DNA from: a phage
Sequence record: PZ476263.1
DNA length: 64,000 nt
Direction: 5' to 3' (one strand)
Made by a program: the position numbers and the translations under genes. Positions within the stretch are counted from its first letter, which is position 1. Every line of letters starts with the position of its first letter. The notes under the pieces were generated by a model. That model was not told the origin of the DNA. It ran no database searches and worked only from the letters and a program-made list of their open reading frames with translations. Below are positions 17,909 to 61,887 of this stretch, piece after piece.

Positions 17909-18235
17909 TCAATTATCTTTCATGTTAAATATTTTTCTTGCTAATTTTTCATTACCGATAGTAATTTGCCATAACCGGATTAGAAGAGTTAGCGCACAAA
18001 CTATCAGGTAGAACAAAATCAAGAAGGCCCACCCGAAAGGCCAAAATACTGCCATCACTAGCCACCCAATCATCAAGGCATTCCAATTAATCCTCCCCCT
18101 ATTTAAAGGGTCCAATAGATTACCACCATTCTTTGCAGGTAAAGGTATATAAAACCCACATTGCCGTAATTTTATTAAAATGAACCACACACCTGCACTT
18201 ATAATAACCCCTAAAAAATAAACTAATATGCTCAT
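17909..18235 (-). CDS. hypothetical membrane protein
   Basis: 108 aa, hydrophobic; similar architecture to 17554..17898. Confidence 0.4.
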   Translation of the reverse strand: MSILVYFLGVIISAGVWFILIKLRQCGFYIPLPAKNGGNLLDPLNRGRINWNALMIGWLVMAVFWPFGWAFLILFYLIVCALTLLIRLWQITIGNEKLARKIFNMKDN

Positions 18236-19506
18236 ATTTCTTTCTCCTCCTCTTCTTTCAGTTTTAATTTTATCTCGGCAAGTGCCTTCTTAACATAACC
18301 TACTTTGAGGTCCCTTACTTTTGAACGAATAACTTCTGGTCGTCCTTTGAATTTTTCAGCGATATCTTTACTCTCTTCAGAGATAGCTACACTGTTTTGA
18401 GTAATCCCTGCCAGTGCTGAATATAATACTTCAACAGAGTCGTACTTGTCAAACATTTTTTCTTCCCCACGTCCTCGTGCATCACAAAGACAAGCCTCTG
18501 CAAACTTCCCAAAAAATTCTTGGTCTTTTTCTCCACGTAGCCGATAGATAAGGTCATACACGGAGGTTGCTTTCATATCTTTGATTCTATGCATACGTGT
18601 ATGTTCTTCGGTCACAATCATGGCAAGCTTTTTCCAACTATTTGGAACACCCATACGATCACAAAGTTCTTCAACAATCGGAACTCCGTATTGTTCATGA
18701 CCATGAAGCTTTTTATCTCTCCAATAAATACTCTTCCCTAGGTCATGACAAAGAACAGCCCACTTAACATCCGGCGGTGACATGATCTTTTGAGCGTAGT
18801 CCAAACACAAAAAGGTATGGATCAGTGCGTCACCTTCTGGATGGTGTTTCTTCGGCTGCTCAACATAATGAAGATTGAACAGCTCAGGAAATTCACCAAG
18901 TCCTGTCAAGAAGCGGAACATAAGGCTAGGCTTATTCTTCTCAGAGTTATCCATGAGACATTTATTAATCTCTGCCCACTTGCGTTCTTTTGGTAGGTAC
19001 TTAACTTGAGCATATCCATTAAAACATGCAGTTAAAGTATCAGGGTGGATACTGAAATCATCACCATATCGAGCATATAACCTTGCAAGTCGATAAATAC
19101 GCAAAGGGTCTTCTTGGAATGCAGTTTTGGAAACACACCGCAAAGATTTTTGCTTTAGGTGCTCAATACCTCCAAATGGATCAATATACTCACCTGTTTC
19201 GAGGTCTTTTGCAATAGCGTTGATAGTTAGGTCGCGTCTTTCCAAATCTTGTTCGATAGTCACATCTGGAGAAAACACAACTTCGAAATCATGATAGCCA
19301 GGTCCTGTTGATTTTTCAGTACGGGCCAGTGCATATTCTTCTTTTGTTAACGGATCAAGGTATACAGGAAACGCCGCCCCCACTTTTGTAAATCCCTTTG
19401 CGATCATTTCTTCATGGGTTGAGCCGACGACAACATAATCTCGGTCTTTACTTTCAACACCCAGAATCTCGTCACGTACTGCACCACCAACTAAATAGAT
19501 TTTCAT
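18232..19506 (-). CDS. tRNA nucleotidyltransferase (CCA-adding enzyme) with HD domain
   Basis: N-terminal LVGGAVRDEILG (GGxVRD head motif), internal RRDLTINA, and HD-domain motif CHDLGK. Confidence 0.7.
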   Translation of the reverse strand: MKIYLVGGAVRDEILGVESKDRDYVVVGSTHEEMIAKGFTKVGAAFPVYLDPLTKEEYALARTEKSTGPGYHDFEVVFSPDVTIEQDLERRDLTINAIAKDLETGEYIDPFGGIEHLKQKSLRCVSKTAFQEDPLRIYRLARLYARYGDDFSIHPDTLTACFNGYAQVKYLPKERKWAEINKCLMDNSEKNKPSLMFRFLTGLGEFPELFNLHYVEQPKKHHPEGDALIHTFLCLDYAQKIMSPPDVKWAVLCHDLGKSIYWRDKKLHGHEQYGVPIVEELCDRMGVPNSWKKLAMIVTEEHTRMHRIKDMKATSVYDLIYRLRGEKDQEFFGKFAEACLCDARGRGEEKMFDKYDSVEVLYSALAGITQNSVAISEESKDIAEKFKGRPEVIRSKVRDLKVGYVKKALAEIKLKLKEEEEKEI

Positions 19507-19835
19507 ACTTTTTCCCCTCTTAAATTTACAGACCAGTCATCTACTTGATTTTTCCAGTCATCGTTTAATCTTCTAACCACTTTTTCACCACGTATGTACA
19601 TTAACAGATCCACAGGGTGCTTGTCAATAAAAGACACTTCATATTTTGGGTCATAACTCATGGAGAGCATTCGGATGATCCGGCTATGTTCTAAAGCCCC
19701 ATCTTCCTTTTCTACACTGATAACCTCATACCCTTCCCATGATTCTTTTATGTATATGATTCTACAAGCTACATCGTAGCCTCTTAACTCACCACGAGAA
19801 CTGAACACAGGTTTATATATTAAATGATATTTCAT
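19503..19835 (-). CDS. hypothetical protein
   Basis: ORF track, 110 aa. Confidence 0.45.
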   Translation of the reverse strand: MKYHLIYKPVFSSRGELRGYDVACRIIYIKESWEGYEVISVEKEDGALEHSRIIRMLSMSYDPKYEVSFIDKHPVDLLMYIRGEKVVRRLNDDWKNQVDDWSVNLRGEKV

Positions 19836-19887
19836 GTTGTCTCCTCATTTGATGAAATCATTATACACCATCATAAAAATAAAGCAA

Positions 19888-19918
19888 CAAAAAAGGCCAC
19901 CCGAAGGTGACCTTTAAA
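19888..19918 (-). terminator. rho-independent terminator
   Basis: Minus-strand hairpin aggtcacc-ttcg-ggtggcct followed by TTTTTT, immediately after the stop of 19920..20429. Confidence 0.55.
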
Positions 19919-19919
19919 T

Positions 19920-20429
19920 TTAAGGATTTACCCAATAGAAGGGCTTATCCAATCCTAGTTTTCCCTGCTTATCCCAAACGAAATAGGCATAAGCTGCACC
20001 ATCTGTTTTACCGTTATCGGTAAACGATGGACGCTTTGAAAGAGTGATCAAGTGATCCACCGGATACTTTTTCCAAAACTCAACTCGCTTTGTACTCTCA
20101 AGAAAACCTAAACGAAGTAACATGATAATCACATCAGCATCTTCATGTGCTTTCTCTACAAACTCCTGAGCCAAACAGTAAGGAGGGTTCGTAATAATGC
20201 AATCTACACGATTGTATTTTGTAGAAAGGTAATCAACACCTTCACGAATCTCTCCCCACGCAGAACCGATAGGTAATTCATTGTAGAATCTTCCAGATGC
20301 TCGGCAAGGTTCCAGATATGTCCAGTCATTTCTAATCGGTACGATATCTAAAAGGCAATCAACTGCCCACTCCGGAGTTTCATAAAGATCATATGCATTT
20401 CGTTCTGCTTTCGGCTTCAACGCTGCCAT
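19920..20429 (-). CDS. small N6-adenine-type methyltransferase (NPPY motif)
   Basis: CIITNPPY motif IV of amino-methyltransferases; 169 aa; DNA versus RNA target unresolved. Confidence 0.45.
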   Translation of the reverse strand: MAALKPKAERNAYDLYETPEWAVDCLLDIVPIRNDWTYLEPCRASGRFYNELPIGSAWGEIREGVDYLSTKYNRVDCIITNPPYCLAQEFVEKAHEDADVIIMLLRLGFLESTKRVEFWKKYPVDHLITLSKRPSFTDNGKTDGAAYAYFVWDKQGKLGLDKPFYWVNP

Positions 20430-21280
20430 TACTGATTAACCCCCTTTTTGATTTCAGTGATAAGAGTATCGATAGCTTCTTCCCAATTCAACTCATTCAG
20501 CTGAAGACCAAAACACTCCCCGATCTCATCGATCTCTTCTAAAGTGTACTCATTGAAGTCTTTAGGGTTAATGTCGAAAATGTTGAAGGCTTTTGTATAT
20601 CCGCAGTCCAGTTCAATTGTAAACGAACCTTCGAGAGATCCTTCTTTTTCTTCAGTAACTTCAGGACTCGGTTCGACTGCCGTTTCAACTTGTGACTCCT
20701 CCTGTTCCTCGACTTCAATCTGTTTTTTAATGATCTTGTCTTCTTGTTCAAGACGTGCTTGCATTTCTTCATGATCGAAATAGATTTCACCAGACCGTTC
20801 AAACAGCTCGGCAATTTCTTCAGGTGTCATGATGTTTTCATACATCGGCAGATATTTCTTTTTAAACAGTTTACGATAAAAATCTGTACGTGTCACCAAA
20901 TGGGCCATATCACCACCAAAACCCAACTGAACGTTGTGGAACATGTAATAAGAACCTGGACGACAGATTCGAACATGCCCTGCTAAGAAAATACCCGTTG
21001 CAGCACTTGCAACTTCACCGATCCCGTGGGTAACCACTGTTGCTTTACTTTCAGAGATGGCTGCGATGTACATGTCTTCTACATTACACAAACCGCCGCA
21101 GGATGTTACATAAAGATTAATAATGTCACCTTCCGGCGCTGTACGGATCAGGTCTACAACTTCGACATGTTGATTTGGTGAATCACCCAACTCAGTTACA
21201 TACACACGCCATTCAGTAGAGGTATGTGGAGTTGCCCAAATGTTACTCTTTTGCGGTAAAGTCATTTCCATCTCAGACAT
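20429..21280 (-). CDS. ClpP-like (S14) serine peptidase domain protein with acidic C-terminal extension
   Basis: HGIGEVASAATGIFLAG (Ser region) and YYMFHNVQLGFGG (His region) resemble the ClpP catalytic core; C-terminal ~120 aa are Glu-rich. Confidence 0.45.
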   Translation of the reverse strand: MSEMEMTLPQKSNIWATPHTSTEWRVYVTELGDSPNQHVEVVDLIRTAPEGDIINLYVTSCGGLCNVEDMYIAAISESKATVVTHGIGEVASAATGIFLAGHVRICRPGSYYMFHNVQLGFGGDMAHLVTRTDFYRKLFKKKYLPMYENIMTPEEIAELFERSGEIYFDHEEMQARLEQEDKIIKKQIEVEEQEESQVETAVEPSPEVTEEKEGSLEGSFTIELDCGYTKAFNIFDINPKDFNEYTLEEIDEIGECFGLQLNELNWEEAIDTLITEIKKGVNQ

Positions 21281-21281
21281 A

Positions 21282-21767
21282 TTAAATACCTCGCTCGTTA
21301 AGTAAATTACGGATGTTCGGTGCGTTTTGTATTACCCATTCTACTACAACAGAATGATCAGAGTCAACAATTACTTCGTGGTGACGCTTAAACATATCAA
21401 GAATCTTTTCTGCTTCTTTAACGTAACGTACTGCACGATCAACAAGAATCAGTTCATCCTTATCTTCTTGAGATACAGGGCATAACTCAGAAGGCACTGT
21501 TATTTCAGAAAGATGATTTACCAGCTCATCCCGATTACTGAACATAATGTCGACTTCTTGACTGATCGGGTAGGATCCGAATGTTAAGATTTTATCCAGC
21601 CAACTTTTATTTTCCTGCTTAAGAAGACGAGCGTCTTTAATTTTGTAACGCAGAGAAATAAACACCTGATTTGCGAGTCGCTCTAGTCGTTCAATTTCTA
21701 GAATACCGCAATTTTTTAACATCATCAATTTACGATGCTCGACTGTACCAAACATACCTTTATCCAC
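21282..21767 (-). CDS. hypothetical protein
   Basis: ORF track, 161 aa. Confidence 0.45.
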   Translation of the reverse strand: MDKGMFGTVEHRKLMMLKNCGILEIERLERLANQVFISLRYKIKDARLLKQENKSWLDKILTFGSYPISQEVDIMFSNRDELVNHLSEITVPSELCPVSQEDKDELILVDRAVRYVKEAEKILDMFKRHHEVIVDSDHSVVVEWVIQNAPNIRNLLNERGI

Positions 21768-21776
21768 TAAAACCCC

Positions 21777-22127
21777 CTAGATCGCAACTAAATATTTAAA
21801 TGTACCATTCTCTCGACTTAATTCAAAAATAACATAGAACCAAACATCATGCCCTGATTCGTTTTCGACTAATACGCGATCACCTTGTTTTAATTCTATT
21901 CCTGAAATGTACTCTTGAGATTCTGTAAAATAACGCCAACGAGACATTTCTTTAAACGAACAGATTAGTTCGCATTTCCCATCTACTGACCAAAGATCTT
22001 GGTTTACCCAATTACCAACCACAAACTCATTAGACTTCTTATACTTACCCAAGGAGTACACTGAATTTAATCGTTTAGCCTTTTCTGATTCCACGTTTAT
22101 TCTCCATGTTTTGTAAGAATGTTTCAA
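21777..22127 (-). CDS. hypothetical protein
   Basis: ORF track, 116 aa; overlaps the end of the upstream gene, so the true start may be internal. Confidence 0.4.
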   Translation of the reverse strand: MKHSYKTWRINVESEKAKRLNSVYSLGKYKKSNEFVVGNWVNQDLWSVDGKCELICSFKEMSRWRYFTESQEYISGIELKQGDRVLVENESGHDVWFYVIFELSRENGTFKYLVAI

Positions 22128-22698
22128 GGACGGACAAGTTCTCTTCTTTCCACAGATTCAGAGTACGTATCCCATGCTTTTTAGCCATATTCACTGCGGA
22201 GGCTGTTCCGCCTAAAGCGTTACCGCTTCTTGTTTCTTTAGCGTAGTATATAACAAACTTACTCGATGTCAAGTAAGCATTTGACAAATCTGCACCAAAT
22301 ACTTGGTGAATATTACGCTCATGCAATTTTCTAGCTCCTTGACTCAACCTCTCCCAGCCACCATGTACTTCTTTAACCCATTCCCATCGCATCTCTTTCA
22401 TTTCAGGATTTAATTTGTCCAAGGTATCTAAATCGATATTGTAAATATCGAGAAGTCCTTCACCACCTTTAAAATTTTTCCAAGGTACATAAATTTCAGC
22501 TATTGTTTTTGGTGATTGGGTCATATTGCAATCCTTATGGTATCTTTGAGCACCCCTTTGAAATGCTGCATCTGCACCATTTGCTCCACCGGATCTCAAT
22601 ACTAAGCCAATCCTTGCTAAACGATAACCTGTATCCTCCATTATGTCAATTACATTTGGAGGTGTTTCTCTTGACCCTATTCCTGTATAAGCTGCCAT
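22075..22698 (-). CDS. hypothetical protein, possibly DprA/SLOG-like Rossmann fold
   Basis: N-terminal YTGIGSRETP...RSGGANGADAA resembles DprA/Smf-type nucleotide-binding motifs; weak. Confidence 0.4.
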   Translation of the reverse strand: MAAYTGIGSRETPPNVIDIMEDTGYRLARIGLVLRSGGANGADAAFQRGAQRYHKDCNMTQSPKTIAEIYVPWKNFKGGEGLLDIYNIDLDTLDKLNPEMKEMRWEWVKEVHGGWERLSQGARKLHERNIHQVFGADLSNAYLTSSKFVIYYAKETRSGNALGGTASAVNMAKKHGIRTLNLWKEENLSVLETFLQNMENKRGIRKG

Positions 22699-23169
22699 TT
22701 AATCAACCTCCCAACCATATGAAGTTTTTCTCCATAACCTCTGATTATCAGATCCACGGAATTTCTTCTCAGTGGGATTATCTTTTTCAAACTTACCGTC
22801 TATTATTACATCTGTCAAAATTTTAATTTCTTCAGGTATGTTTTCAAAAGTGTATCCCGTCCATAAATAAATATCTTTCGAACCTCCAAACTTCTTCCTT
22901 ACCGAATTTAAAATATCAATAACAAATTCGATATTTTCTGAGTCGAGAGGCTCACCACCCAAAACTGAAAGACCTTTAATGAATGGTCGGGATAAGTCTG
23001 CAAGTAATTTTTCCTGGTCCTCTTCTGTATATAACTTACCGGAAGTATAGGACCAGAATTTTTTATTAAAACATCCCTTGCATTTGTGGCTACACCCACT
23101 AACCCATAAAGACGTTCTAACCCCATCCCCATTTATGAGGTCTGTGTTTTCGTAGCCACAAATATTCAC
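22699..23169 (-). CDS. nrdG: anaerobic ribonucleotide reductase activating protein
   Basis: VSGCSHKCKGCFNK radical-SAM-type Cys cluster; 156 aa; immediately downstream of nrdD with a 4-nt overlap. Confidence 0.7.
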   Translation of the reverse strand: MNICGYENTDLINGDGVRTSLWVSGCSHKCKGCFNKKFWSYTSGKLYTEEDQEKLLADLSRPFIKGLSVLGGEPLDSENIEFVIDILNSVRKKFGGSKDIYLWTGYTFENIPEEIKILTDVIIDGKFEKDNPTEKKFRGSDNQRLWRKTSYGWEVD

Positions 23170-25253
23170 CGATGCTTCTCCCTTTGTAAGACTTCTTGCA
23201 TTTTACCTTTATTATAAGGTCTTGAGTTAGGTGCTGACAAATATCCAGATACCCGTCGAATCACCGATATCGTCCCTTCTTCATTGTTTCCACAACACGG
23301 ACATTCAAATCCTTTAGCTGTAGCATTGAACTCCCCAGAGAAATTACATTTAAAACACTGGTCTACTGGTTGGTTAATCCCGAAGTAAGGAATAGTATCA
23401 TAGCCGTAATCGATCAAAGTTTCAAGAGCTTCCATATTATTTTTCAAATTTGGAGTCTCCACGTAGCCAATATTGCCACCGCTACTGATTGTCGCAAAAC
23501 CTTTCTCATAATTCCACTTGCTGAAAGGATCAGACAGTTCCCAAACAGGTAAATGAAAAGAGTTCGTCAGGTAATCCCTGTTCATTTCTTCAGGGAACTT
23601 CTCTTTCAGTTTTGTAGCGAAACGATAGCATAAGCTTTCAGCAGGCGTACCGTACAGACTAAAAGATAAACGAGAACGCTCTTTAAACTCATCACATTTT
23701 AACTTCATATGATTAAGTACCATAATCGCCAACGTTTTATCAAGATCTCCGGTTACAATCTTTATAGCTTCTGCAAGACCGACGTAACCTATACTAATTG
23801 AGGCATACCCATCATAAAACAACTTACCGATCTTTTCTTCAGGCTCTAATCGGGAAAGTGCACCCTCTACAAAAAGTGTTGGGTTCTGCCCTGCTTTTAC
23901 ATCCTTTAAGCGATCAACCCGAACCATTTGAGCTTCATATGCCTTTTCCATATGCTTATCTAACGATTCATAAAAATCACAGCCGATAGTTTTAGATTCT
24001 GCTGCAATTAAAGGTAGGTTTATTGAAACAACCCCCAAATTAAAACGTCCGTCGTATTTTTCTCCGTTATCTGTCGTAAATTTTGACAGGAAGCTCCTAC
24101 ATCCCATGCTTGTTACCTTACCTTCTGTAGAACCCGTAACTTCTTTATTTAAAGGAACCGAAATAAAATCAGGATAGATTCTTTCAACACAACAATCCAT
24201 CGCCAACTTCTTAAGATCGTAGTTCGGATCTTCAGGTTTCATGTTCACACCATCTTGAAGGAAGAAAACTACCTTCGGAAAAACAGGTGTTACACGATCC
24301 TTTCCCAAGCCCCCAACATGAACCTTAAAATAGTTCTTAGTTATCATCCTACCAAAAACAGAAGTGTCTAAACCCAGACTAATAGTTATAAAAGGAGATT
24401 GACCGTTAACACTCATCAACGTATTTACTTGATACAACAATGTTTGCATCGCATCGTAAACGTCACGATCCGTCATTTCCATTGCTTTATCTTTATCTAC
24501 CACTCCGATATCTTCGAGTAGTTTTACGTTCTTCTTATAACTCATTTCTGCGTATTGCTTAAGCCCTTCATCGATATGGGCACAAGTTTGTCCACCATAC
24601 TGACTAGAGGCAACAGCTTGGATTATCTGGGTAAGTACAGTTGTTGCAACACCGATAGATTTAGGCTTTTCAATCTTTGCATTACCAATCTTAAATCCAT
24701 TTTCCAACATGTCGCGATAATTAACAAGGCAACAGTTTGTCAGTGGACTGATCAGGTAATCCAAATCATGAATGTGACCGTAACCATCATTGTGCCAAGC
24801 TGCAAGGTCTTTCGGTAAGATCTGACTTGTTGCTACATGCTTACTTAGGATACCTGCTAAAAGATCACGATGACTATTTACCAAGTTCGCTGGCTTGTTT
24901 GCATTTTCTCTCGTAAACTCTTCTGCGGATTGATCAAGAAATCCAGAGATATCTGAATAAAGTTTACCTTTACCTTCTCGATAGCTATCACGATCATGTC
25001 GATATTCAATATATTTTCGTGCAGCATCACGAGTCACCTTTGAACTCATCATGATATTCTCTACAGCTGTATGAATACTTTCTACAGAGATTGTATCATT
25101 ACCTTCTAATGACTTAACCACTTTTGCTGTAACGTTATTTGAAATCTTTTCATTTTTGATTTCACCTGCTGAAAAAAGAGCGGCCTCCACTGCCGCTTTA
25201 ATTTTCAAACTATCAAATGCTTCCTTGCAACCATCCCTTTTTATAACATTCAC
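23166..25253 (-). CDS. nrdD: anaerobic ribonucleoside-triphosphate reductase
   Basis: 695 aa; N-terminal MNVIKRDGCKEAFD, C-terminal Zn ribbon CFKCNFSGEF...CPCCGN and glycyl-radical tail RRVSGYL, closely matching recalled E. coli NrdD. Confidence 0.8.
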   Translation of the reverse strand: MNVIKRDGCKEAFDSLKIKAAVEAALFSAGEIKNEKISNNVTAKVVKSLEGNDTISVESIHTAVENIMMSSKVTRDAARKYIEYRHDRDSYREGKGKLYSDISGFLDQSAEEFTRENANKPANLVNSHRDLLAGILSKHVATSQILPKDLAAWHNDGYGHIHDLDYLISPLTNCCLVNYRDMLENGFKIGNAKIEKPKSIGVATTVLTQIIQAVASSQYGGQTCAHIDEGLKQYAEMSYKKNVKLLEDIGVVDKDKAMEMTDRDVYDAMQTLLYQVNTLMSVNGQSPFITISLGLDTSVFGRMITKNYFKVHVGGLGKDRVTPVFPKVVFFLQDGVNMKPEDPNYDLKKLAMDCCVERIYPDFISVPLNKEVTGSTEGKVTSMGCRSFLSKFTTDNGEKYDGRFNLGVVSINLPLIAAESKTIGCDFYESLDKHMEKAYEAQMVRVDRLKDVKAGQNPTLFVEGALSRLEPEEKIGKLFYDGYASISIGYVGLAEAIKIVTGDLDKTLAIMVLNHMKLKCDEFKERSRLSFSLYGTPAESLCYRFATKLKEKFPEEMNRDYLTNSFHLPVWELSDPFSKWNYEKGFATISSGGNIGYVETPNLKNNMEALETLIDYGYDTIPYFGINQPVDQCFKCNFSGEFNATAKGFECPCCGNNEEGTISVIRRVSGYLSAPNSRPYNKGKMQEVLQREKHR

Positions 25254-25255
25254 TA

Positions 25256-25999
25256 TTAACGACCTCCAAGATCTCGTTCACGAGCTTTAACAACTGCCTT
25301 ACAGAATCCACCACGAACAATCTCATCACTTGTGGTTTCAACGAAATCTGCAAAATCAAACAGATTGTGTCGGTCGATAAATTCAATCGCCCATTCCAAC
25401 CCTGTCTCCCGATTACGCATATCATTCTGAGAAATATCGCCCAAACAAACCAGTTTTGAACCTTCTGCAAGTCGAGTCATGATCGTGTATGCTGTATCTT
25501 CATCGGTGTTTTGGAATTCATCAATGATAACAACCGCATTTTCAAAAGAACGACCACGAATATACTCCAAAGGCACAAACTCAATGTTACCACAACCAAC
25601 CTGAGTCTCAAAGAATCCATGACCATATCGTTGTTGGATAACTTGAATCATAGGCTGAAGATAAGGTTCGAATTTTTCTCGAACTGTACCAGGCAGCAAA
25701 CCTAAGCTATTCCCCATTCCCAATGTAGGGCGAGAAAGAACGATCTTGTCAATCTTGCCCTGCTTTAACCAATCAATAACGGTACTCATAATAATAAACG
25801 TCTTACCTGTACCAGCCGGAGCATTCACGAACACTGCATCCTTAGTATTTACAAGAGATAACAGTTTTTCTTGAAAGCGGTTTTTCGGTCGGACTGGTTT
25901 TTTCAACTCTTCAAAAGCTTTCGGTGCTACTTGACGGCCTTTTACTCGTTTCTCTTCACGGCGTTCCTGACGAGATTTACGGTTTGTATGACGTTGCAT
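25256..25999 (-). CDS. phoH: PhoH-like ATPase
   Basis: Walker A VNAPAGTGKTF and Walker B VVIIDEFQN in a PhoH-like arrangement. Confidence 0.7.
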   Translation of the reverse strand: MQRHTNRKSRQERREEKRVKGRQVAPKAFEELKKPVRPKNRFQEKLLSLVNTKDAVFVNAPAGTGKTFIIMSTVIDWLKQGKIDKIVLSRPTLGMGNSLGLLPGTVREKFEPYLQPMIQVIQQRYGHGFFETQVGCGNIEFVPLEYIRGRSFENAVVIIDEFQNTDEDTAYTIMTRLAEGSKLVCLGDISQNDMRNRETGLEWAIEFIDRHNLFDFADFVETTSDEIVRGGFCKAVVKARERDLGGR

Positions 26000-26017
26000 A
26001 ATAAGTACCTCTCTAGG

Positions 26018-26404
26018 TTAAGGATAAGTTTTTGAAGGGAGTTGGAAATGTGGACCATCTTTAAAAGATTTCCAGTCACCACCCCATTCGATCTGTATAT
26101 TCAACTCCTTTGCTGCATTCTTCATTGCTTCTGCCACTGGGTAGTAATATTTCCAATCCCAAGTAACAGAGCCGTTAACCAAAGGCCACAGGTCAACTGC
26201 GTGTCCGGTAAGATGACGACTGTTCATCGTTTTACTCTTCCCTTCCGCTACATATTTACGCTGTGTTTCTATTGTACGTAATCCTTCCCCCACTGTAAAG
26301 TCAATTTCGCTTTTTTCTATCGCCAATTTGACAACTTTAACGAGGTCAGGATGAACGCCCTTAAGGCGTTCAAGACTGCGTGTACCTAATTTAAATCCCA
26401 TCAA
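26018..26404 (-). CDS. endolysin, L-alanyl-D-glutamate peptidase (T5-type, M15-like)
   Basis: 128 aa; SRHLTGHAVDL and WGGDW motifs and overall similarity to recalled T5 endolysin. Confidence 0.65.
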   Translation of the reverse strand: MMGFKLGTRSLERLKGVHPDLVKVVKLAIEKSEIDFTVGEGLRTIETQRKYVAEGKSKTMNSRHLTGHAVDLWPLVNGSVTWDWKYYYPVAEAMKNAAKELNIQIEWGGDWKSFKDGPHFQLPSKTYP

Positions 26405-55341: not shown

Positions 55342-56420
55342 TAGAATACATGATGTCTCGTCTTCGTTCCAGTTCTTCTTACCCTTCACGAATGGTAATT
55401 AGTTGTAACCCTGATCCTGATCATTATCTTCGTAAGATGGTTGATTGGTATCTCGATAAGGATGGTTATCCTGATCCTACAAAGGATGGAGTCATTCGAT
55501 ATTTCGTTCGAGTTGATGACCAATACATGTGGGGCGAATCAGTAGAAGAGCTTAAGAAGCGGTACGGTAAGAAATGTAAGCCTGTTTCTTTTACATTTAT
55601 ATCTTCTACTATTTACGATAACCCACCAATGCTTATTAACAACCCAGACTATCTAGCACAGCTGGAAGGTCTTAATGAGGTTGACAGAGCAAGACTGTTA
55701 CACGGCAACTGGGATGCACGTCCTCAGGGTGCTAACTATTTTAAACGTTCTTTTCTTAAAGAGGTTGATGTTCTTCCTTTAGGTGTAGATAAGGTTAGAT
55801 CATACGATAAAGCAGGAACTGAACGTTCTACAGGTAATAAAACACCTGACTTTACAGCCGGAATCGGTGTGGCGAGAGATCAGGACGGAATTTATTATCT
55901 TTTTGGCGATTATTGTGAAGAGTTTGTTGATGAAGGTGATTGGTCTACTGGCAACCTTGGTAGGTTCTGTAAGAAAGCTGGTGAACGAGATACGATCATT
56001 ATGAAACAAGCAATTCATGACGGTGATGATGTTAGAATAATATTCCCTGTTGACCCTGGTCAAGCGGGTATTGCTGAATTCACTACATCTTCCCGAGAAT
56101 TATTAAATCAAGGATTCATTGTTGAGAAAGACCCAACTCCTGGTAACAAGAAGAAGCTTGTACGCTTCTCTCCGTTTGCTAACCTTGCTCAGAACGGATT
56201 TGTTAGGATTGTTAAAAAGTCTTTCCCTTTGGATACCTATGAAGCATTAATGAAAGAGCTTGAATCTTTCAATGGTGAAAGGTCAACAGGGACACGTAAA
56301 GATGACTGGGTGGATGCTATCTCAACCGGAATAAATTTCCTTGAGAAAACAGAAATAGTCAGGGCTGTTACAATACCACGACCTTCTGCCCCAACACTTT
56401 ATTCGAAGTATCGACGATAA
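55342..56420 (+). CDS. terminase large subunit, exon 3 (remaining ATPase and nuclease domains)
   Basis: Continues in phase (L)EYMMSRLRSSSSYPSRMVISCNPDPDHY…; 359 codons to TAA at 56418-20; immediately upstream of the portal gene. Confidence 0.65.
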
Positions 56421-56429
56421 CCGAGGGGA

Positions 56430-57962
56430 ATGATTTTGAAAAATAAGAAAAGTCGTAAAACTAATGTTCGCAAAGCAACTAGCGAAGAATTAAATGTTTC
56501 TCGTCTTCGTATGAGTGAACAAGGTACTTTTGCACTGGCTAAGGTTCAGATCGAAACTGAACGAATGAAAGCCGAAGAAATTAAATGGCCTCAGCTTATC
56601 GGTACTGTTGAAGCTATGAAGCAAGATGCTACGGTAGCGACTGGCCTTGATATGCTGTATACTTTCGTAGAAAAAGCATTTAAGGATTTTAAAGTTATTC
56701 CTGGTAAATCAAAAGAATCACAGGATGCTGCCGACTTTATCACTTATTGTTTGAAGAATATGGAAGGACAAACTCTTCGCCAGTTTGCTCGTGATGCTGC
56801 AACATTTAATGAATACGGAATCTCCGTAGTAGAAAAAGTTTATACGCAGATCCTTACTGGTGAATATGCTGGCAAGTTTAAAATTAAAAATCTTGCTTTC
56901 CGACCACAAGCGTCTTTAAGTCGTAAAAATCCTCTCGTATATAGCGATGACGGTTCTAGAGTAATTGGCGTTAAACAGACCCTTACTTCTTTCAAGAATT
57001 ACACAAATAGCGTATTGGGCAATAGTTCTGGATTTATTGGTTCTCGCAACGGTGATGATGTTATCATTCCTGCAAACAAGGTTATGATCATGACCACTGG
57101 CGGATCTTCGTCTCAGGCACTAGGCGTTTCACCTCTGGTTGCTTGCTATCGACCTTGGCGTGAAAAGGTTCTGATTGAAAACTTAGAAGTTGTTGGTGCT
57201 ACAAAAGATATGGGCGGTGTTATCGAATTAAAGATACCTTCTTCCATACTTAACAAAGCTGCAATTGACCCATCAAGCTACGAAGCTGAAATGGTTCAGG
57301 GTCTAATGGCTGACGCAGCCAACGCCCACTCTGGTGAGCAATCTTTCTTTATGCTGCCTTCTGACACTAAAGATAACGCTCCTTTATACTCAATGTCTCT
57401 GAAAGGCATTGACGGTATGGGTAAACAGTACAGCACTCGTGACCTTATCAGTGATCGTAAGAAATCAATCCTTGATCGTTTGGGAGCAGGATTCCTTAAC
57501 GTGGGTAATGATGATGCTGGTTCTTATAATCTGTCTGAGTCTAAGCAAACAATCCACACTCAATTTGTACAACGTGTAAATGAAATTATTGCTGAAGCAT
57601 TAAATGAGAATTTACTCCCTCAGCTTCTGGCATTAAATGGTATTCGCCTTGAACAAAAAGAAATGCCTTTCATTAAATTCGGTCAGATTGTTGACACAGA
57701 TATGGAAGGATTCTCCAAAGCTGTACAGCGTATGGGTGCTGTAGGTTATCTGCCTAAGACTCCAGAAGTAATCAATAAGATCCTTGACGTACTTGGAATT
57801 GATTATCAGTTGGCAGAAGATATTTCTCAAGAAGACCTTATGTTGCTTCTTGGAGATAATACCAGTCGTTCAGGTGATGGCTTTGCGCCAGGTTCGACAG
57901 GAAACGGGACTGGAAAGATTAGTGCTTCAAGAGACAATTCAATTTCTAACTTAGAAAATTGA
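56430..57962 (+). CDS. portal protein
   Basis: 510 aa; position directly after the terminase and before the scaffold/capsid genes; size typical of portals. Confidence 0.6.
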   Translation: MILKNKKSRKTNVRKATSEELNVSRLRMSEQGTFALAKVQIETERMKAEEIKWPQLIGTVEAMKQDATVATGLDMLYTFVEKAFKDFKVIPGKSKESQDAADFITYCLKNMEGQTLRQFARDAATFNEYGISVVEKVYTQILTGEYAGKFKIKNLAFRPQASLSRKNPLVYSDDGSRVIGVKQTLTSFKNYTNSVLGNSSGFIGSRNGDDVIIPANKVMIMTTGGSSSQALGVSPLVACYRPWREKVLIENLEVVGATKDMGGVIELKIPSSILNKAAIDPSSYEAEMVQGLMADAANAHSGEQSFFMLPSDTKDNAPLYSMSLKGIDGMGKQYSTRDLISDRKKSILDRLGAGFLNVGNDDAGSYNLSESKQTIHTQFVQRVNEIIAEALNENLLPQLLALNGIRLEQKEMPFIKFGQIVDTDMEGFSKAVQRMGAVGYLPKTPEVINKILDVLGIDYQLAEDISQEDLMLLLGDNTSRSGDGFAPGSTGNGTGKISASRDNSISNLEN

Positions 57963-58028
57963 TCTTTGCTTTAAATCAATCTCTTGCAAAACGTATCGTT
58001 CAGTGTTAAAATAAATATCACGGGAGCA

Positions 58029-58601
58029 ATGATGGAAAACATTACTATCTCCGACCTTCCTTCACATACCTATCTGTCTCGAATTCAAAAGAGTCGGGCT
58101 GTGAAAAAGGCCAATGAGCTACTTGAAAAGGGCTTCAATAAGGAAGCCTCTATATCAGGAGCCATTGGCTCCGTTCTTATTCAAAAATCCAATCAGCAAG
58201 AAGAAATGATTTCTTATGAAATTATTTACGAACCTGATACTCCTGACCTGCATGGTCAGTGGATGAGTAAAGAAACATTAGTTAAGGCGCAACAGGATTT
58301 CAAAAAGGCTCAAGAAATAGGGGCCGTAACTGAAAACCTTTATCACTTGGTTGATACCGAAGCATTCAAGATCGTAGATCATTGGATTCAGCCAGAATTT
58401 GATGTAACTGTCGCTGCGACAGGTGAAGTCATTAAAGCAGGATCTTGGGTAGCAAAAGTTCAATATACACCTGAAGCATGGGAATTGAAAAAGGCTGGCA
58501 TCGTCGGCGGATTATCTCTTCAATGTGGCGGGATGTTGAATGAAGAAACAAATGAGCTATCCGATCTTGATTTCAGTATCGCATTGGAAGAGGAAGAATA
58601 A
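58029..58601 (+). CDS. head morphogenesis protein (possible prohead protease)
   Basis: Between portal and scaffold; start at internal Met after gggag; acidic C-terminal tail; function by position only. Confidence 0.35.
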   Translation: MMENITISDLPSHTYLSRIQKSRAVKKANELLEKGFNKEASISGAIGSVLIQKSNQQEEMISYEIIYEPDTPDLHGQWMSKETLVKAQQDFKKAQEIGAVTENLYHLVDTEAFKIVDHWIQPEFDVTVAATGEVIKAGSWVAKVQYTPEAWELKKAGIVGGLSLQCGGMLNEETNELSDLDFSIALEEEE

Positions 58602-61196: not shown

Positions 61197-61275
61197 TATG
61201 CCTGTACATTTTGGATAAAATAGTGTACTATTATAAGATAGGCCCTTAATATAATCAATGACGAAGGAGTTATTA

Positions 61276-61887
61276 ATGTCTAAATCAACTCACTTAGAAA
61301 TCTTTCGAAGTGAATATCACATGCTCAAATTCTTTGGGGAATATCTTGAAAAGTTAGATGTTAATACATCTGCTCGATTGGGAGCTTTCCTTTATAGTTA
61401 TGACGGAAACTTAGTTCTGGCCCGTGGCCTTTATGATTTTCTTTCTCAAATGGAAAAAATGACTGCCTTGGGTATTGATGTTAAATCATCTACTCAGAAA
61501 GGTACTAGCTTCTTGGTATTTTTTAAAGAAAAACCAAAAGCCCCTGAAAAATTCCGTCAAGATGTTAAAAAGATTGAAGCTTTGAAAGAAGCAATTGTAG
61601 TAGCTACTCCAGCTAAAACTATGGAGGAGACTATCCTTGTTTCTACGAAAGTAGAAGAAGAGGGTAAATCTGAAGAGACTGTGGAAGTAGAAGAAAAAGT
61701 TGTTAAGTCTTCTCGTAGTCAAGAAGAAAAAGCAGAGATCTTAGCAAAAGCGGAAGAACTTCGTGATGACAGTAAGAAAGCTGCTGCAAAAGCTGCACTC
61801 GAAGCTTTCGGTATGGAACACGGTGTTTCTCTGAGCAAAGGTAAAACCTTTGATGCGATGTTGGAAGATTTAGCTGCTGCACTTTAA
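61276..61887 (+). CDS. hypothetical structural-module protein
   Basis: Start at Met after aaggag; 203 aa; Lys/Glu-rich C-terminal half. Confidence 0.45.
   Translation: MSKSTHLEIFRSEYHMLKFFGEYLEKLDVNTSARLGAFLYSYDGNLVLARGLYDFLSQMEKMTALGIDVKSSTQKGTSFLVFFKEKPKAPEKFRQDVKKIEALKEAIVVATPAKTMEETILVSTKVEEEGKSEETVEVEEKVVKSSRSQEEKAEILAKAEELRDDSKKAAAKAALEAFGMEHGVSLSKGKTFDAMLEDLAAAL

What the first reader, a model, noticed from the sequence alone, without database searches (positions are those of the whole stretch)
20429..21280. ClpP-like serine peptidase with acidic C-terminal extension encoded in the early region
The Ser and His regions (GEVASAATG; YYMFHNVQLGFGG) resemble ClpP, but the gene lies far from the head module on the opposite strand and has a ~120-aa Glu-rich tail. 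It may be a prohead protease encoded remotely, or an early protease acting on host proteins.
Basis: partly seen in the sequence, partly recalled or inferred. Interest (0 to 1): 0.5.

Follow-up and report, generated by a model that had tools for sequence, protein, structure and literature searches.

The report
Phage ClpP-like peptidase, not head protease
This gene encodes a probably active ClpP-type protein-cutting enzyme of a family annotated in more than a thousand large phage genomes but never functionally explained; it is almost certainly not the capsid-maturation protease, and its acidic "tail" is really a flexible linker carrying a small conserved domain.

Summary

Ser92 and His115 are invariant in 155 family representatives. 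The third triad position is Glu165, which is Asp or Glu in 144 of 155.

The window is a Vequintavirinae-like myovirus. Its head module, about 35 kb away on the other strand, has its own S78_2/XkdF-type prohead protease (57984-58601). That protein, not the ClpP-like one, is found in virions of the closest relatives. The "remote prohead protease" reading is therefore disfavoured.

Residues that form the ClpX/ClpA docking pocket in E. coli ClpP are mostly polar here, and the ClpP N-terminal gate has no counterpart. The usual label "ATP-dependent" is doubtful.

The tail has three parts: a long helix, a poorly conserved Glu-rich linker, and a conserved, strongly acidic 65-aa domain under purifying selection.

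No function has been reported; a 2023 paper calls the T5-like homologue's function unknown. This is a new member of a known, uncharacterised family, of modest interest.

The parts
20429..21280 (-). ClpP-like peptidase gene, 283 aa plus stop. Its start lies 1 nt after the stop of the upstream ORF, and its stop overlaps the ATG of the downstream methyltransferase gene.
   Evidence: ORF list and sequence. Pfam CLP_protease. PHROG 5410 E=2e-74.
21289..21292 (-). Shine-Dalgarno-like GAGG, 8 nt upstream of the ATG.
   Evidence: Read directly from the sequence.
20774..21220 (-). ClpP-fold catalytic core, residues 21-169, including the handle helix at 125-147.
21005..21007 (-). Codon of Ser92, the predicted nucleophile (aligns to E. 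coli ClpP Ser97).
   Evidence: Invariant in 155 of 155 representatives. hhalign alignment.
20936..20938 (-). Codon of His115 (aligns to ClpP His122).
   Evidence: Invariant in 155 of 155 representatives. hhalign alignment.
20786..20788 (-). Codon of Glu165, at the position of ClpP Asp171, the third triad member.
   Evidence: MAFFT alignment with E. coli ClpP; the family has Asp 86, Glu 58, Gln 7 at this column. The phmmer alignment places it two residues away, so this assignment is less certain than those for Ser and His.
20678..20773 (-). Long helix, residues 170-201. It continues the last ClpP helix outward and is Glu/Lys-rich.
   Evidence: Secondary structure of the model. dN/dS 0.15.
20630..20677 (-). 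Acidic flexible linker, residues 202-217, variable in length and sequence among relatives.
   Evidence: pLDDT below 50 at 209-215. Insertions and deletions in the alignment. dN/dS 0.22.
20432..20629 (-). Conserved acidic C-terminal domain, residues 218-283, with a beta hairpin followed by three helices. Net charge is -11 over residues 219-283.
   Evidence: pLDDT 94-98. Found in 27 of 155 representatives by iterated HMM. dN/dS 0.06. Charge survey across members.
19920..20429 (-). Downstream co-oriented DNA methyltransferase gene, start overlapping the peptidase stop (probably translationally coupled).
   Evidence: PHROG 799 E=5.5e-67. The same arrangement occurs in all Vequintavirinae-like loci examined.
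19892..19915 (-). Terminator-like hairpin followed by a T run, probably the end of the transcription unit.
   Evidence: Consensus scan only.
21282..21767 (-). Upstream 161-aa ORF of unknown function (phrog_7224), conserved immediately 5' of the peptidase gene within Vequintavirinae only.
   Evidence: PHROG hit. BLASTP among neighbours of different lineages.
57984..58601 (+). Comparator, not part of the feature: the head module's own prohead protease (Peptidase_S78_2 / XkdF type).
   Evidence: Pfam E=1.9e-15. PHROG 3017 and 1530. The orthologue is detected in W70 and CB7 virions.

Best explanation
The gene encodes a catalytically competent ClpP-fold serine peptidase (Ser92-His115-Glu165, with the Gly62-Gly63 motif) of a phage-specific family, PHROG 5410/1827. 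This family is usually annotated "ATP-dependent Clp protease" in Vequintavirinae, T5-like phages, ICP1 and many marine phages.

Shown: fold, catalytic residues, family membership, gene context, and the existence of a separate prohead protease.

Inferred:
1. It is made together with the replication, nucleotide-metabolism and tRNA-related genes, in a unit ending at the terminator after the methyltransferase gene, and it acts in the cytoplasm rather than in the prohead.
2. Because it keeps the ClpP handle helix, it probably assembles into ClpP-like rings.
3. Because the hydrophobic pocket that receives the IGF/IGL loops of ClpX/ClpA is replaced by polar residues, and the ClpP N-terminal gate and helix A have no counterpart, it probably works without the host Clp unfoldases.
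4. The helix, acidic linker and acidic 65-aa domain emerge where ClpP's C-terminus lies, on the apical face. They would act as tethered arms that bind a basic partner or substrate and bring it to the ring. The substrates are unknown.
For: Family and fold:
- Pfam CLP_protease 30.8 bits against a cutoff of 20.2.
- PHROG 5410 E=2e-74 and PHROG 1827 E=3e-36.
- 1131 phage records carry a relative.

Catalysis:
- Ser92, His115 and Gly62-Gly63 are invariant in 155 representatives.
- The Asp171-equivalent position is Asp or Glu in 144 of 155.

Not the head protease:
- An S78_2 protease sits in the head module.
- Virion proteomes of W70 and CB7 contain that protease; the ClpP-like protein is not among the 28 W70 virion proteins.

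Loss of the ATPase docking surface:
- E. coli ClpP L48, Y60, F82, I90, M92 and L114 correspond to D43, N55, E77, H85, I87 and R107.
- The family majority at these positions is D, H/N/E, E, H, E and S.
- hhalign supports this register, and its alignment starts only at ClpP residue 24.
- No AAA+ unfoldase was found among the 10 window ORFs scanned against Pfam, eight of them the largest without an assignment.

C-terminal domain is functional:
- dN/dS 0.06 for the domain against 0.22 for the linker.
- It is conserved across 27 representatives.
- It is acidic throughout the family, median net charge -5 and -10 to -14 in close relatives.

Context:
- Tight operon packing and a terminator after the methyltransferase gene.
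- Synteny conserved in 18 Vequintavirinae-like loci.
Against: - There is no biochemical, expression or genetic evidence for any member. The only statement found is that the function of the BF23 (T5-like) homologue is "currently unknown" (PMC10644984).
- That homologue was detected at low intensity in purified virions. This does not fit a purely cytoplasmic role, although it may be contamination.
- Ring assembly, gate state and ATPase independence are inferred from one monomer model and from alignments. No multimer prediction or coordinate inspection was possible.
- The Glu165 assignment rests on MAFFT. The phmmer pairwise alignment put Ser163 opposite Asp171, and hhalign did not reach that region.
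- The binding role of the C-terminal domain is conjecture. No homologue of the domain outside this family was found.
Confidence: 0.5

Rival explanations
1. It is an alternative proteolytic core for the host unfoldases ClpX, ClpA or another AAA+ partner, as the usual annotation "ATP-dependent Clp protease proteolytic subunit" implies. It would redirect host ATP-dependent proteolysis during infection.
For: - The closest solved structures are genuine ClpP.
- The handle helix needed for double rings is present.
- Tyr57 is retained at the position of pocket residue Tyr62.
Against: - Most docking-pocket positions are polar or charged in the query and in the family.
- The N-terminal axial loops and helix A are not aligned.
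- NCBIfam ClpP equivalog models score 20-25 bits against cutoffs of 228-251.
- The C-terminal arms would occupy the apical face where the ATPase docks. This last point is inference.
Confidence: 0.15
2. It is a remotely encoded second head protease, or a protease-scaffold fusion in the manner of lambda gpC/Nu3. The Glu-rich helix and C-terminal domain would target it into the procapsid.
For: - After its own family, the next-best PHROG matches are "head maturation protease" families: phrog_1684 E=1.6e-15 and phrog_94 E=3e-11.
- NCBIfam Clp_rel_HeadMat is the top hit, though weak.
- Acidic helical regions ending in a small C-terminal binding domain are typical of scaffolding proteins (general knowledge).
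- The BF23 homologue was seen in virions at low intensity.
- No obvious scaffolding gene was identified in the head module.
Against: - A dedicated S78_2 protease occupies the canonical slot next to the portal and is the one found in virions of W70 and CB7.
- The ClpP-like protein is absent from the W70 list of 28 virion proteins.
- The gene sits among nucleotide-metabolism genes on the opposite strand, in a block conserved across lineages.
- T5-like homologues lack the C-terminal domain, and T5 heads are matured by a different protease.
- Clp_rel_HeadMat scores 27 bits against a cutoff of 120.
- No in-frame internal start with a ribosome-binding site precedes the tail (read).
Confidence: 0.1
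3. It is a packaged or ejected protease, carried in small amounts in the virion and acting on host proteins at the start of the next infection.
For: The BF23 Clp protease (ORF45) was detected in purified virions with 3 peptides (PMC10644984).
Against: - It was not detected in the W70 virion list, and no Clp term occurs in the passage of the CB7 virion table shown by the search.
- The BF23 signal is among the weakest in that table, and the non-structural dihydrofolate reductase gave a stronger signal in the same preparation, so carry-over is plausible.
Confidence: 0.05
4. It is a catalytically inert ClpP-like scaffold, or a subunit that co-assembles with and poisons host ClpP.
For: - Asp is replaced by Glu at the third triad position in this clade.
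- Inactive ClpR-type paralogues exist in other systems (general knowledge).
Against: - Ser, His and the Gly-Gly motif are invariant across 155 diverged representatives, and dN/dS of the core is 0.04. This pattern is expected for an active enzyme.
- Identity to E. coli ClpP is only about 20%, which makes mixed rings unlikely.
Confidence: 0.04

Closest known systems
"ATP-dependent Clp protease" genes of large virulent phages (PHROG 5410 and PHROG 1827): Vequintavirinae (for example Pectobacterium phage PcCB7V, Klebsiella phage KB57, Escherichia phage A7_1), T5/BF23 ORF45, and Vibrio phage ICP1 "ClpP".
   Same: - Same family: PHROG 5410 E=2e-74 over the full length.
- 58% identity to the A7_1 protein and 43% to the PcCB7V protein, both including the C-terminal domain.
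- Identical gene order in Vequintavirinae-like loci.
- 25-30% identity over the catalytic core to the T5-like and ICP1 proteins.
   Different: - There is no close relative in the GenBank phage collection searched: all matches are below 60% identity.
- T5-like proteins (about 200 aa) lack the C-terminal domain and end in a short acidic tail.
- ICP1 and KLEP7 have longer, different extensions whose extreme C-termini carry a similar helix-loop-helix motif by eye.
- None has a demonstrated function.
Bacterial ClpP (MEROPS S14, Pfam PF00574), for example E. coli ClpP.
   Same: - Ser-His nucleophile pair and Gly-Gly motif in register.
- An acidic residue at the Asp171 position.
   Different: - About 20% identity.
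- Glu in place of Asp at the third triad position.
- No counterpart of the N-terminal axial loops and helix A.
- IGF-loop docking pocket mostly polar.
- A 114-aa C-terminal extension.
- Far below the NCBIfam ClpP cutoffs.
ClpP-related phage head maturation proteases (NCBIfam NF045542; PHROG 1684, 94, 26628).
   Same: ClpP/crotonase-clan serine protease domain encoded by a phage. These are the next-best profile matches after the protein's own family.
   Different: - Not in the head module.
- Scores 27 bits against a cutoff of 120.
- The phage has a different protease (S78_2) in the head-protease slot.
SppA (S49) and NfeD ClpP-class proteases.
   Different: SppA uses a Ser-Lys dyad and is membrane-associated (general knowledge). 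Here His115 is invariant. No signal peptide or membrane segment is evident by eye in the sequence; no predictor was run.

Membership tests
ClpP / peptidase S14 (Pfam PF00574) | Sequence match above the curated Pfam gathering score. | tested here: met
   30.8 bits against a cutoff of 20.2, residues 52-131. All 51 long family members tested also match.
ClpP / peptidase S14 (Pfam PF00574) | ClpP fold with handle helix. | tested here: met
   [not shown]
ClpP / peptidase S14 (Pfam PF00574) | Ser-His-Asp catalytic triad. | tested here: met
   Ser92 and His115 are invariant. The third position is Glu165 here and Asp or Glu in 144 of 155 representatives. The Glu assignment rests on MAFFT only.
Canonical bacterial ClpP (NCBIfam ClpP equivalog/subfamily models) | Score above the curated cutoff. 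| tested here: not met
   13-25 bits against cutoffs of 228-347.
Canonical bacterial ClpP (functional partner of ClpX/ClpA) | Hydrophobic apical pocket for IGF/IGL loops (E. coli L48, F49, Y60, Y62, F82, I90, M92, F112, L114). | tested here: not met
   The query has D43, L44, N55, Y57, E77, H85, I87, I105 and R107. The family majority is polar at 6 of these 9 positions. The register is supported by hhalign. The pocket residue list is from memory of published ClpP-ADEP and ClpX work.
Canonical bacterial ClpP (functional partner of ClpX/ClpA) | N-terminal axial loops and helix A that gate the pore. | tested here: not met
   The hhalign alignment begins at ClpP residue 24. Model residues 1-22 have no regular structure.
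Canonical bacterial ClpP | Heptameric rings stacked into a tetradecamer. | not testable with these tools
   Only a monomer model could be made.
ClpP-related head maturation protease (NF045542) | Score above the curated cutoff. | tested here: not met
   27.1 bits against a cutoff of 120.
ClpP-related head maturation protease (NF045542) | Gene located in the head module next to portal, scaffold or capsid genes. | tested here: not met
   The gene is about 35 kb from the head module, on the other strand. The slot next to the portal is occupied by an S78_2 protease.
ClpP-related head maturation protease (NF045542) | Processes capsid or scaffold proteins. | not testable with these tools
   Indirect only: the protein is absent from the W70 virion protein list, and no Clp term occurs in the CB7 table passage shown.
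Phage 'ATP-dependent protease' family PHROG 5410 | Full-length profile match including the C-terminal domain. | tested here: met
   E=2e-74, residues 10-280 on profile positions 15-309 of 323.
SAP / HeH / Rho_N helix-extended-helix domains (considered for residues 245-283) | Significant profile match and a basic, nucleic-acid-binding surface. | tested here: not met
   Rho_N is hit by 3 of 26 members, best E=0.004, and SAP by 1. The PDB profile search gives Rho E=0.18. hhalign against the E. coli Rho N-terminus gives probability 0.5%. The domain has net charge -11.

The most novel reading that the evidence does not exclude
The family may be a self-sufficient, unfoldase-independent ClpP ring. 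In this reading, the apical surface that normally docks ClpX/ClpA has been replaced by seven covalently tethered acidic domains, possibly nucleic-acid-mimicking. These would capture basic host proteins (nucleoid-associated, ribosomal or defence proteins) and feed them to the chamber, giving a host-takeover or counter-defence protease built into one polypeptide. The recurrent placement 0.8-5 kb downstream of PhoH and near the endolysin gene in several unrelated phage groups could then reflect a shared functional module.
Probability: 0.12. Interest if true: 0.7.

Novelty: new member of a known kind. Interest (0 to 1): 0.3.

Why it matters
ClpP-like genes outside the head module are annotated in over a thousand large virulent phages, including the model phages T5 and ICP1, and none has an assigned role. 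Two points from this analysis make the problem more tractable. First, the family probably cannot dock the host Clp ATPases. Second, one subfamily carries a conserved acidic domain on a flexible arm. Together they give a concrete bait for substrate trapping (an S92A mutant plus the C-terminal domain) and caution against the inherited label "ATP-dependent". For this window specifically the result is ordinary: a diverged orthologue in a conserved gene block.

Tried and rejected
1. SAP/HeH/Rho_N identity for the last two helices. The motif looked similar by eye, but all sequence tests were non-significant. The domain is strongly acidic, which argues against nucleic-acid binding.

2. Searching for the C-terminal domain outside this family. 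The search for homologous proteins with alignment A4 returned nothing. Pfam on the 73-aa fragment found nothing.

3. PhoH as a dedicated partner ATPase.
- For: PhoH lies 0.8-5 kb upstream on the same strand in Vequintavirinae-like loci, ICP1, phiPsa381 and KLEP7, and is the adjacent gene in V22.
- Against: T5-like phages keep PhoH more than 20 kb away, and PhoH occurs in 3496 phage records against 1131 for the peptidase.
- The linkage is more simply inherited synteny.

4. A conserved partner encoded by the ORF immediately upstream. Homologues are detectable only within Vequintavirinae.

5. A nested internal start producing a free tail protein, as in lambda C/Nu3. No in-frame start codon follows the AGGAGG at residues 194-196 (read).

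6. Fused domains elsewhere in the family as functional clues. The only informative extra domain with a strong score among 51 long members was a single inorganic pyrophosphatase fusion; the other single-member hits were weak.

7. Broad locus retrieval. Alignments A3 and A5 were too diverse for the search for related loci, and P0020 gave no loci.

8. Literature on function. Nothing was found beyond annotation and the BF23 virion detection.
Full report
**1. Observation**

- GAGG lies 8 nt upstream of the start.
- The start is 1 nt after the stop of the upstream ORF.
- The stop overlaps the ATG of the next gene.

Both quoted motifs are present, at residues 88-96 and 111-123.

The similarity to ClpP is well beyond chance.
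- Pfam CLP_protease scores 30.8 bits against a gathering cutoff of 20.2.
- PHROG 5410, "ATP-dependent protease", gives E=2e-74 over the full length.
- Solved ClpP chains are the best PDB sequence hits.

A first AlphaFold model from 5 sequences was mediocre (pLDDT 65). A second, from a 70-sequence alignment, reached pLDDT 91.9.
- Its best PDB matches by Foldseek are all ClpP: E about 1e-8, TM 0.72 normalised to the target, rmsd 2.4 A over 160 columns.

**2. Catalytic residues**

An exhaustive profile search found 4955 representatives at E<=1e-3 and 21 at E<=1e-30. I aligned the best 155 with E. coli ClpP.

| Query residue | ClpP equivalent | Conservation in 155 representatives |
|---|---|---|
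| Ser92 | Ser97 | 155/155 |
| His115 | His122 | 155/155 |
| Gly62-Gly63 | Gly67-Gly68 | 155/155 |
| Glu165 | Asp171 | Asp 86, Glu 58, Gln 7 |

hhalign of the family profile against E. coli ClpP confirms the register up to residue 131 (probability 97.5%, E=8.7e-12). It does not reach the Asp171 region. A pairwise phmmer alignment placed Ser163 opposite the Asp. The Glu165 assignment is therefore likely but less secure than Ser and His.

The invariance, together with dN/dS of about 0.04 for the core against an 80%-identical relative (L009), indicates an active enzyme.

**3. What the tail is**

Residues 170-283 are 22.8% Glu with net charge -23. They resolve into three parts.
- A long helix, 170-201.
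- A low-confidence linker, 202-217, that varies in length and sequence among relatives. Residues 178-218 are 34% Glu.
- A confidently folded domain, 218-283, with a beta hairpin and three helices.

An iterated HMM finds this domain in 27 of the 155 representatives.

Selection differs among the parts when compared with L009 (synonymous sites are near saturation, so values are approximate).

| Region | dN/dS |
|---|---|
| Catalytic core | 0.04 |
| C-terminal domain | 0.06 |
| Long helix | 0.15 |
| Linker | 0.22 |

The domain is acidic throughout the family: net -11 here, median -5, and -10 to -14 in close relatives.

Shorter homologues also end in acidic tails, as in T5, phiPsa381 and PK-3. ICP1 and KLEP7 have long acidic extensions ending in a similar helix-loop-helix motif by eye.

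I tested whether the last two helices are a SAP/HeH/Rho_N motif. The hits were consistent in kind but not significant.
- Pfam Rho_N in 3 of 26 members, best E=0.004.
- PDB profile search, Rho E=0.18.
- hhalign against the E. coli Rho N-terminus, probability 0.5%.

The acidity argues against nucleic-acid binding. No homologue of the domain was found outside the family.

**4. Genome context**

The window belongs to a Vequintavirinae-like (rV5 / Certrevirus / Septuagintavirus) myovirus.
- The best phage matches are Escherichia phage A7_1 (58% aa) and Pectobacterium phage PcCB7V (43%).
- An 80%-identical protein lies on a 57-kb Logan contig with the same gene order.

The gene sits in the long minus-strand cluster of nucleotide-metabolism and replication genes: RNR, NrdD/NrdG, ThyX, DNA ligase, RNase H-like.

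One block recurs in all 18 Vequintavirinae-like loci examined. In order:
- M15 endolysin
- PhoH
- NrdD/NrdG (in some loci only)
- SLOG/DprA-like protein
- two small ORFs
- the ClpP-like gene
- DNA methyltransferase
- CCA-adding enzyme, a few genes further on

A terminator-like hairpin follows the methyltransferase gene at 19915-19892. "Early" is an inference from this context. No expression data were found.

**5. Is it the prohead protease?**

The head module lies at 55.3-61.9 kb on the plus strand. It contains TerL, portal (56430-57962), a 205-aa protein (57984-58601), a 361-aa protein, a decoration protein and the MCP.

The 205-aa protein matches Pfam Peptidase_S78_2, the XkdF type (E=1.9e-15), and PHROG 3017 and 1530.
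- In phage W70, a close relative, the phrog_1530 protein is annotated as the capsid maturation protease and was detected in purified virions. None of the 28 virion proteins is the ClpP-like protein (PMC11370258).
- In CB7, the corresponding "prohead core protein protease" was detected. No Clp term occurs in the passage of the virion table that the search returned (PMC7344957).

T5-like phages carry a homologue of the ClpP-like protein in addition to their characterised prohead protease. The BF23 paper states that the function of this Clp protease is "currently unknown" (PMC10644984).

The same paper detected the Clp protease at low intensity in virions. That is the only observation favouring a virion or head role.

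I therefore rate the remote-prohead-protease reading at about 0.1.

**6. Does it work with host Clp ATPases?**

The standard annotation implies that it does. The residues that line the IGF/IGL docking pocket of E. coli ClpP map as follows (register supported; the pocket list itself is from memory of published work).

| E. coli ClpP | Query | Family majority |
|---|---|---|
| L48 | D43 | D |
| F49 | L44 | T/L |
| Y60 | N55 | H/N/E |
| Y62 | Y57 | Y/H |
| F82 | E77 | E |
| I90 | H85 | H |
| M92 | I87 | E |
| F112 | I105 | I/V |
| L114 | R107 | S |

The family is polar or charged at most of these positions. ClpP's N-terminal loops and helix A have no aligned counterpart. NCBIfam ClpP models score 13-25 bits against cutoffs above 200. 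No AAA+ unfoldase was found among the 10 window ORFs scanned against Pfam, although only 64 kb of a roughly 140-kb genome is visible.

I infer that the enzyme probably acts without ClpX or ClpA. This step is inferred, not shown.

**7. Proposed mechanism (inferred)**

The protein is a ClpP-like ring; the handle helix at 125-147 is retained. It is made with the replication-phase genes.

Its C-termini emerge on the apical face, as ClpP C-termini do. They carry flexible acidic arms ending in a small conserved acidic domain that binds a basic partner or substrate.

The targets are unknown. They could be host proteins, phage proteins or peptides.

**8. Other leads followed**

PhoH lies 0.8-5 kb upstream on the same strand in Vequintavirinae-like loci, ICP1, phiPsa381 and KLEP7, and is the adjacent gene in V22. 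An endolysin gene is adjacent or close in T5-like phages, Vibrio phage D51, KB57 and this window.

Two facts weaken a functional link to PhoH.
- T5-like phages keep PhoH more than 20 kb away from the peptidase gene.
- PhoH is three times more widespread than the peptidase: 3496 phage records against 1131.

Inherited synteny is the simpler explanation. The ORF immediately upstream is conserved only within Vequintavirinae. Domain fusions elsewhere in the family were uninformative.

**9. Verdict**

- The gene is a diverged orthologue within a large family that is already annotated and functionally uncharacterised.
- The new descriptive points are the loss of the ATPase docking pocket and the conserved acidic C-terminal domain.
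- Novelty: new member of a known kind. Interest: 0.3.

Noticed in passing
window 53696-56420 (+): The large terminase gene appears to be split. A 118-aa ORF with the Walker A motif lies at 53696-54052. It is followed by an HNH endonuclease ORF (54148-54825) and an Rfam group I intron (RF00028, 54986-55290, 78.7 bits, E=2.5e-18). The C-terminal TerL part at 55293-56420 matches only positions 279-624 of the 642-position TerL profile.
   Followed up: partly
window 18232-26404 (-); loci L001, L003, L004, L006, L007, L009-L024: A conserved block runs M15 endolysin, PhoH, (NrdD/NrdG), SLOG/DprA-like, two small ORFs, ClpP-like peptidase, DNA methyltransferase, then CCA-adding enzyme. PhoH is also 0.8-1.7 kb upstream of the ClpP-like gene in ICP1, phiPsa381 and KLEP7, and adjacent in Alteromonas phage V22. 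It is more than 20 kb away in T5-like phages, where an endolysin gene follows the peptidase gene instead.
   Followed up: partly
window 3923-7208 (-): There are three consecutive RCC1-like repeat proteins of 380, 416 and 328 aa. The corresponding proteins are virion components in phage W70 (PMC11370258).
   Followed up: no
window 61258-61887 (+): A 209-aa protein just after the major capsid gene has a weak C-terminal match to PHROG 1051, "minor head protein inhibitor of protease" (E=5.5e-5, residues 165-209). This could be relevant to regulation of the S78_2 prohead protease.
   Followed up: no
window 50967-52824 (+): A tRNA cluster holds Met, Tyr, Gly, Gln and Pro by ARAGORN, plus one weaker Rfam tRNA hit at 50967-51045. 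It lies at the strand-switch region between the early and late gene blocks.
   Followed up: no
window 22075-22698 (-): A 207-aa SLOG/DprA-like protein (PHROG 768, E=2.6e-62) is conserved between PhoH and the peptidase gene in Vequintavirinae. It shows a weak BLASTP similarity (E=2.5e-4) between its PcCB7V orthologue and the T5-like protein annotated as dNMP kinase, which sits directly upstream of the T5 ClpP-like gene.
   Followed up: no
protein P0001 (Logan assemblies): A protein differing from the window's peptidase by one residue (L128M) occurs on three short public contigs, so this or a nearly identical phage has been sequenced in metagenomes.
   Followed up: no
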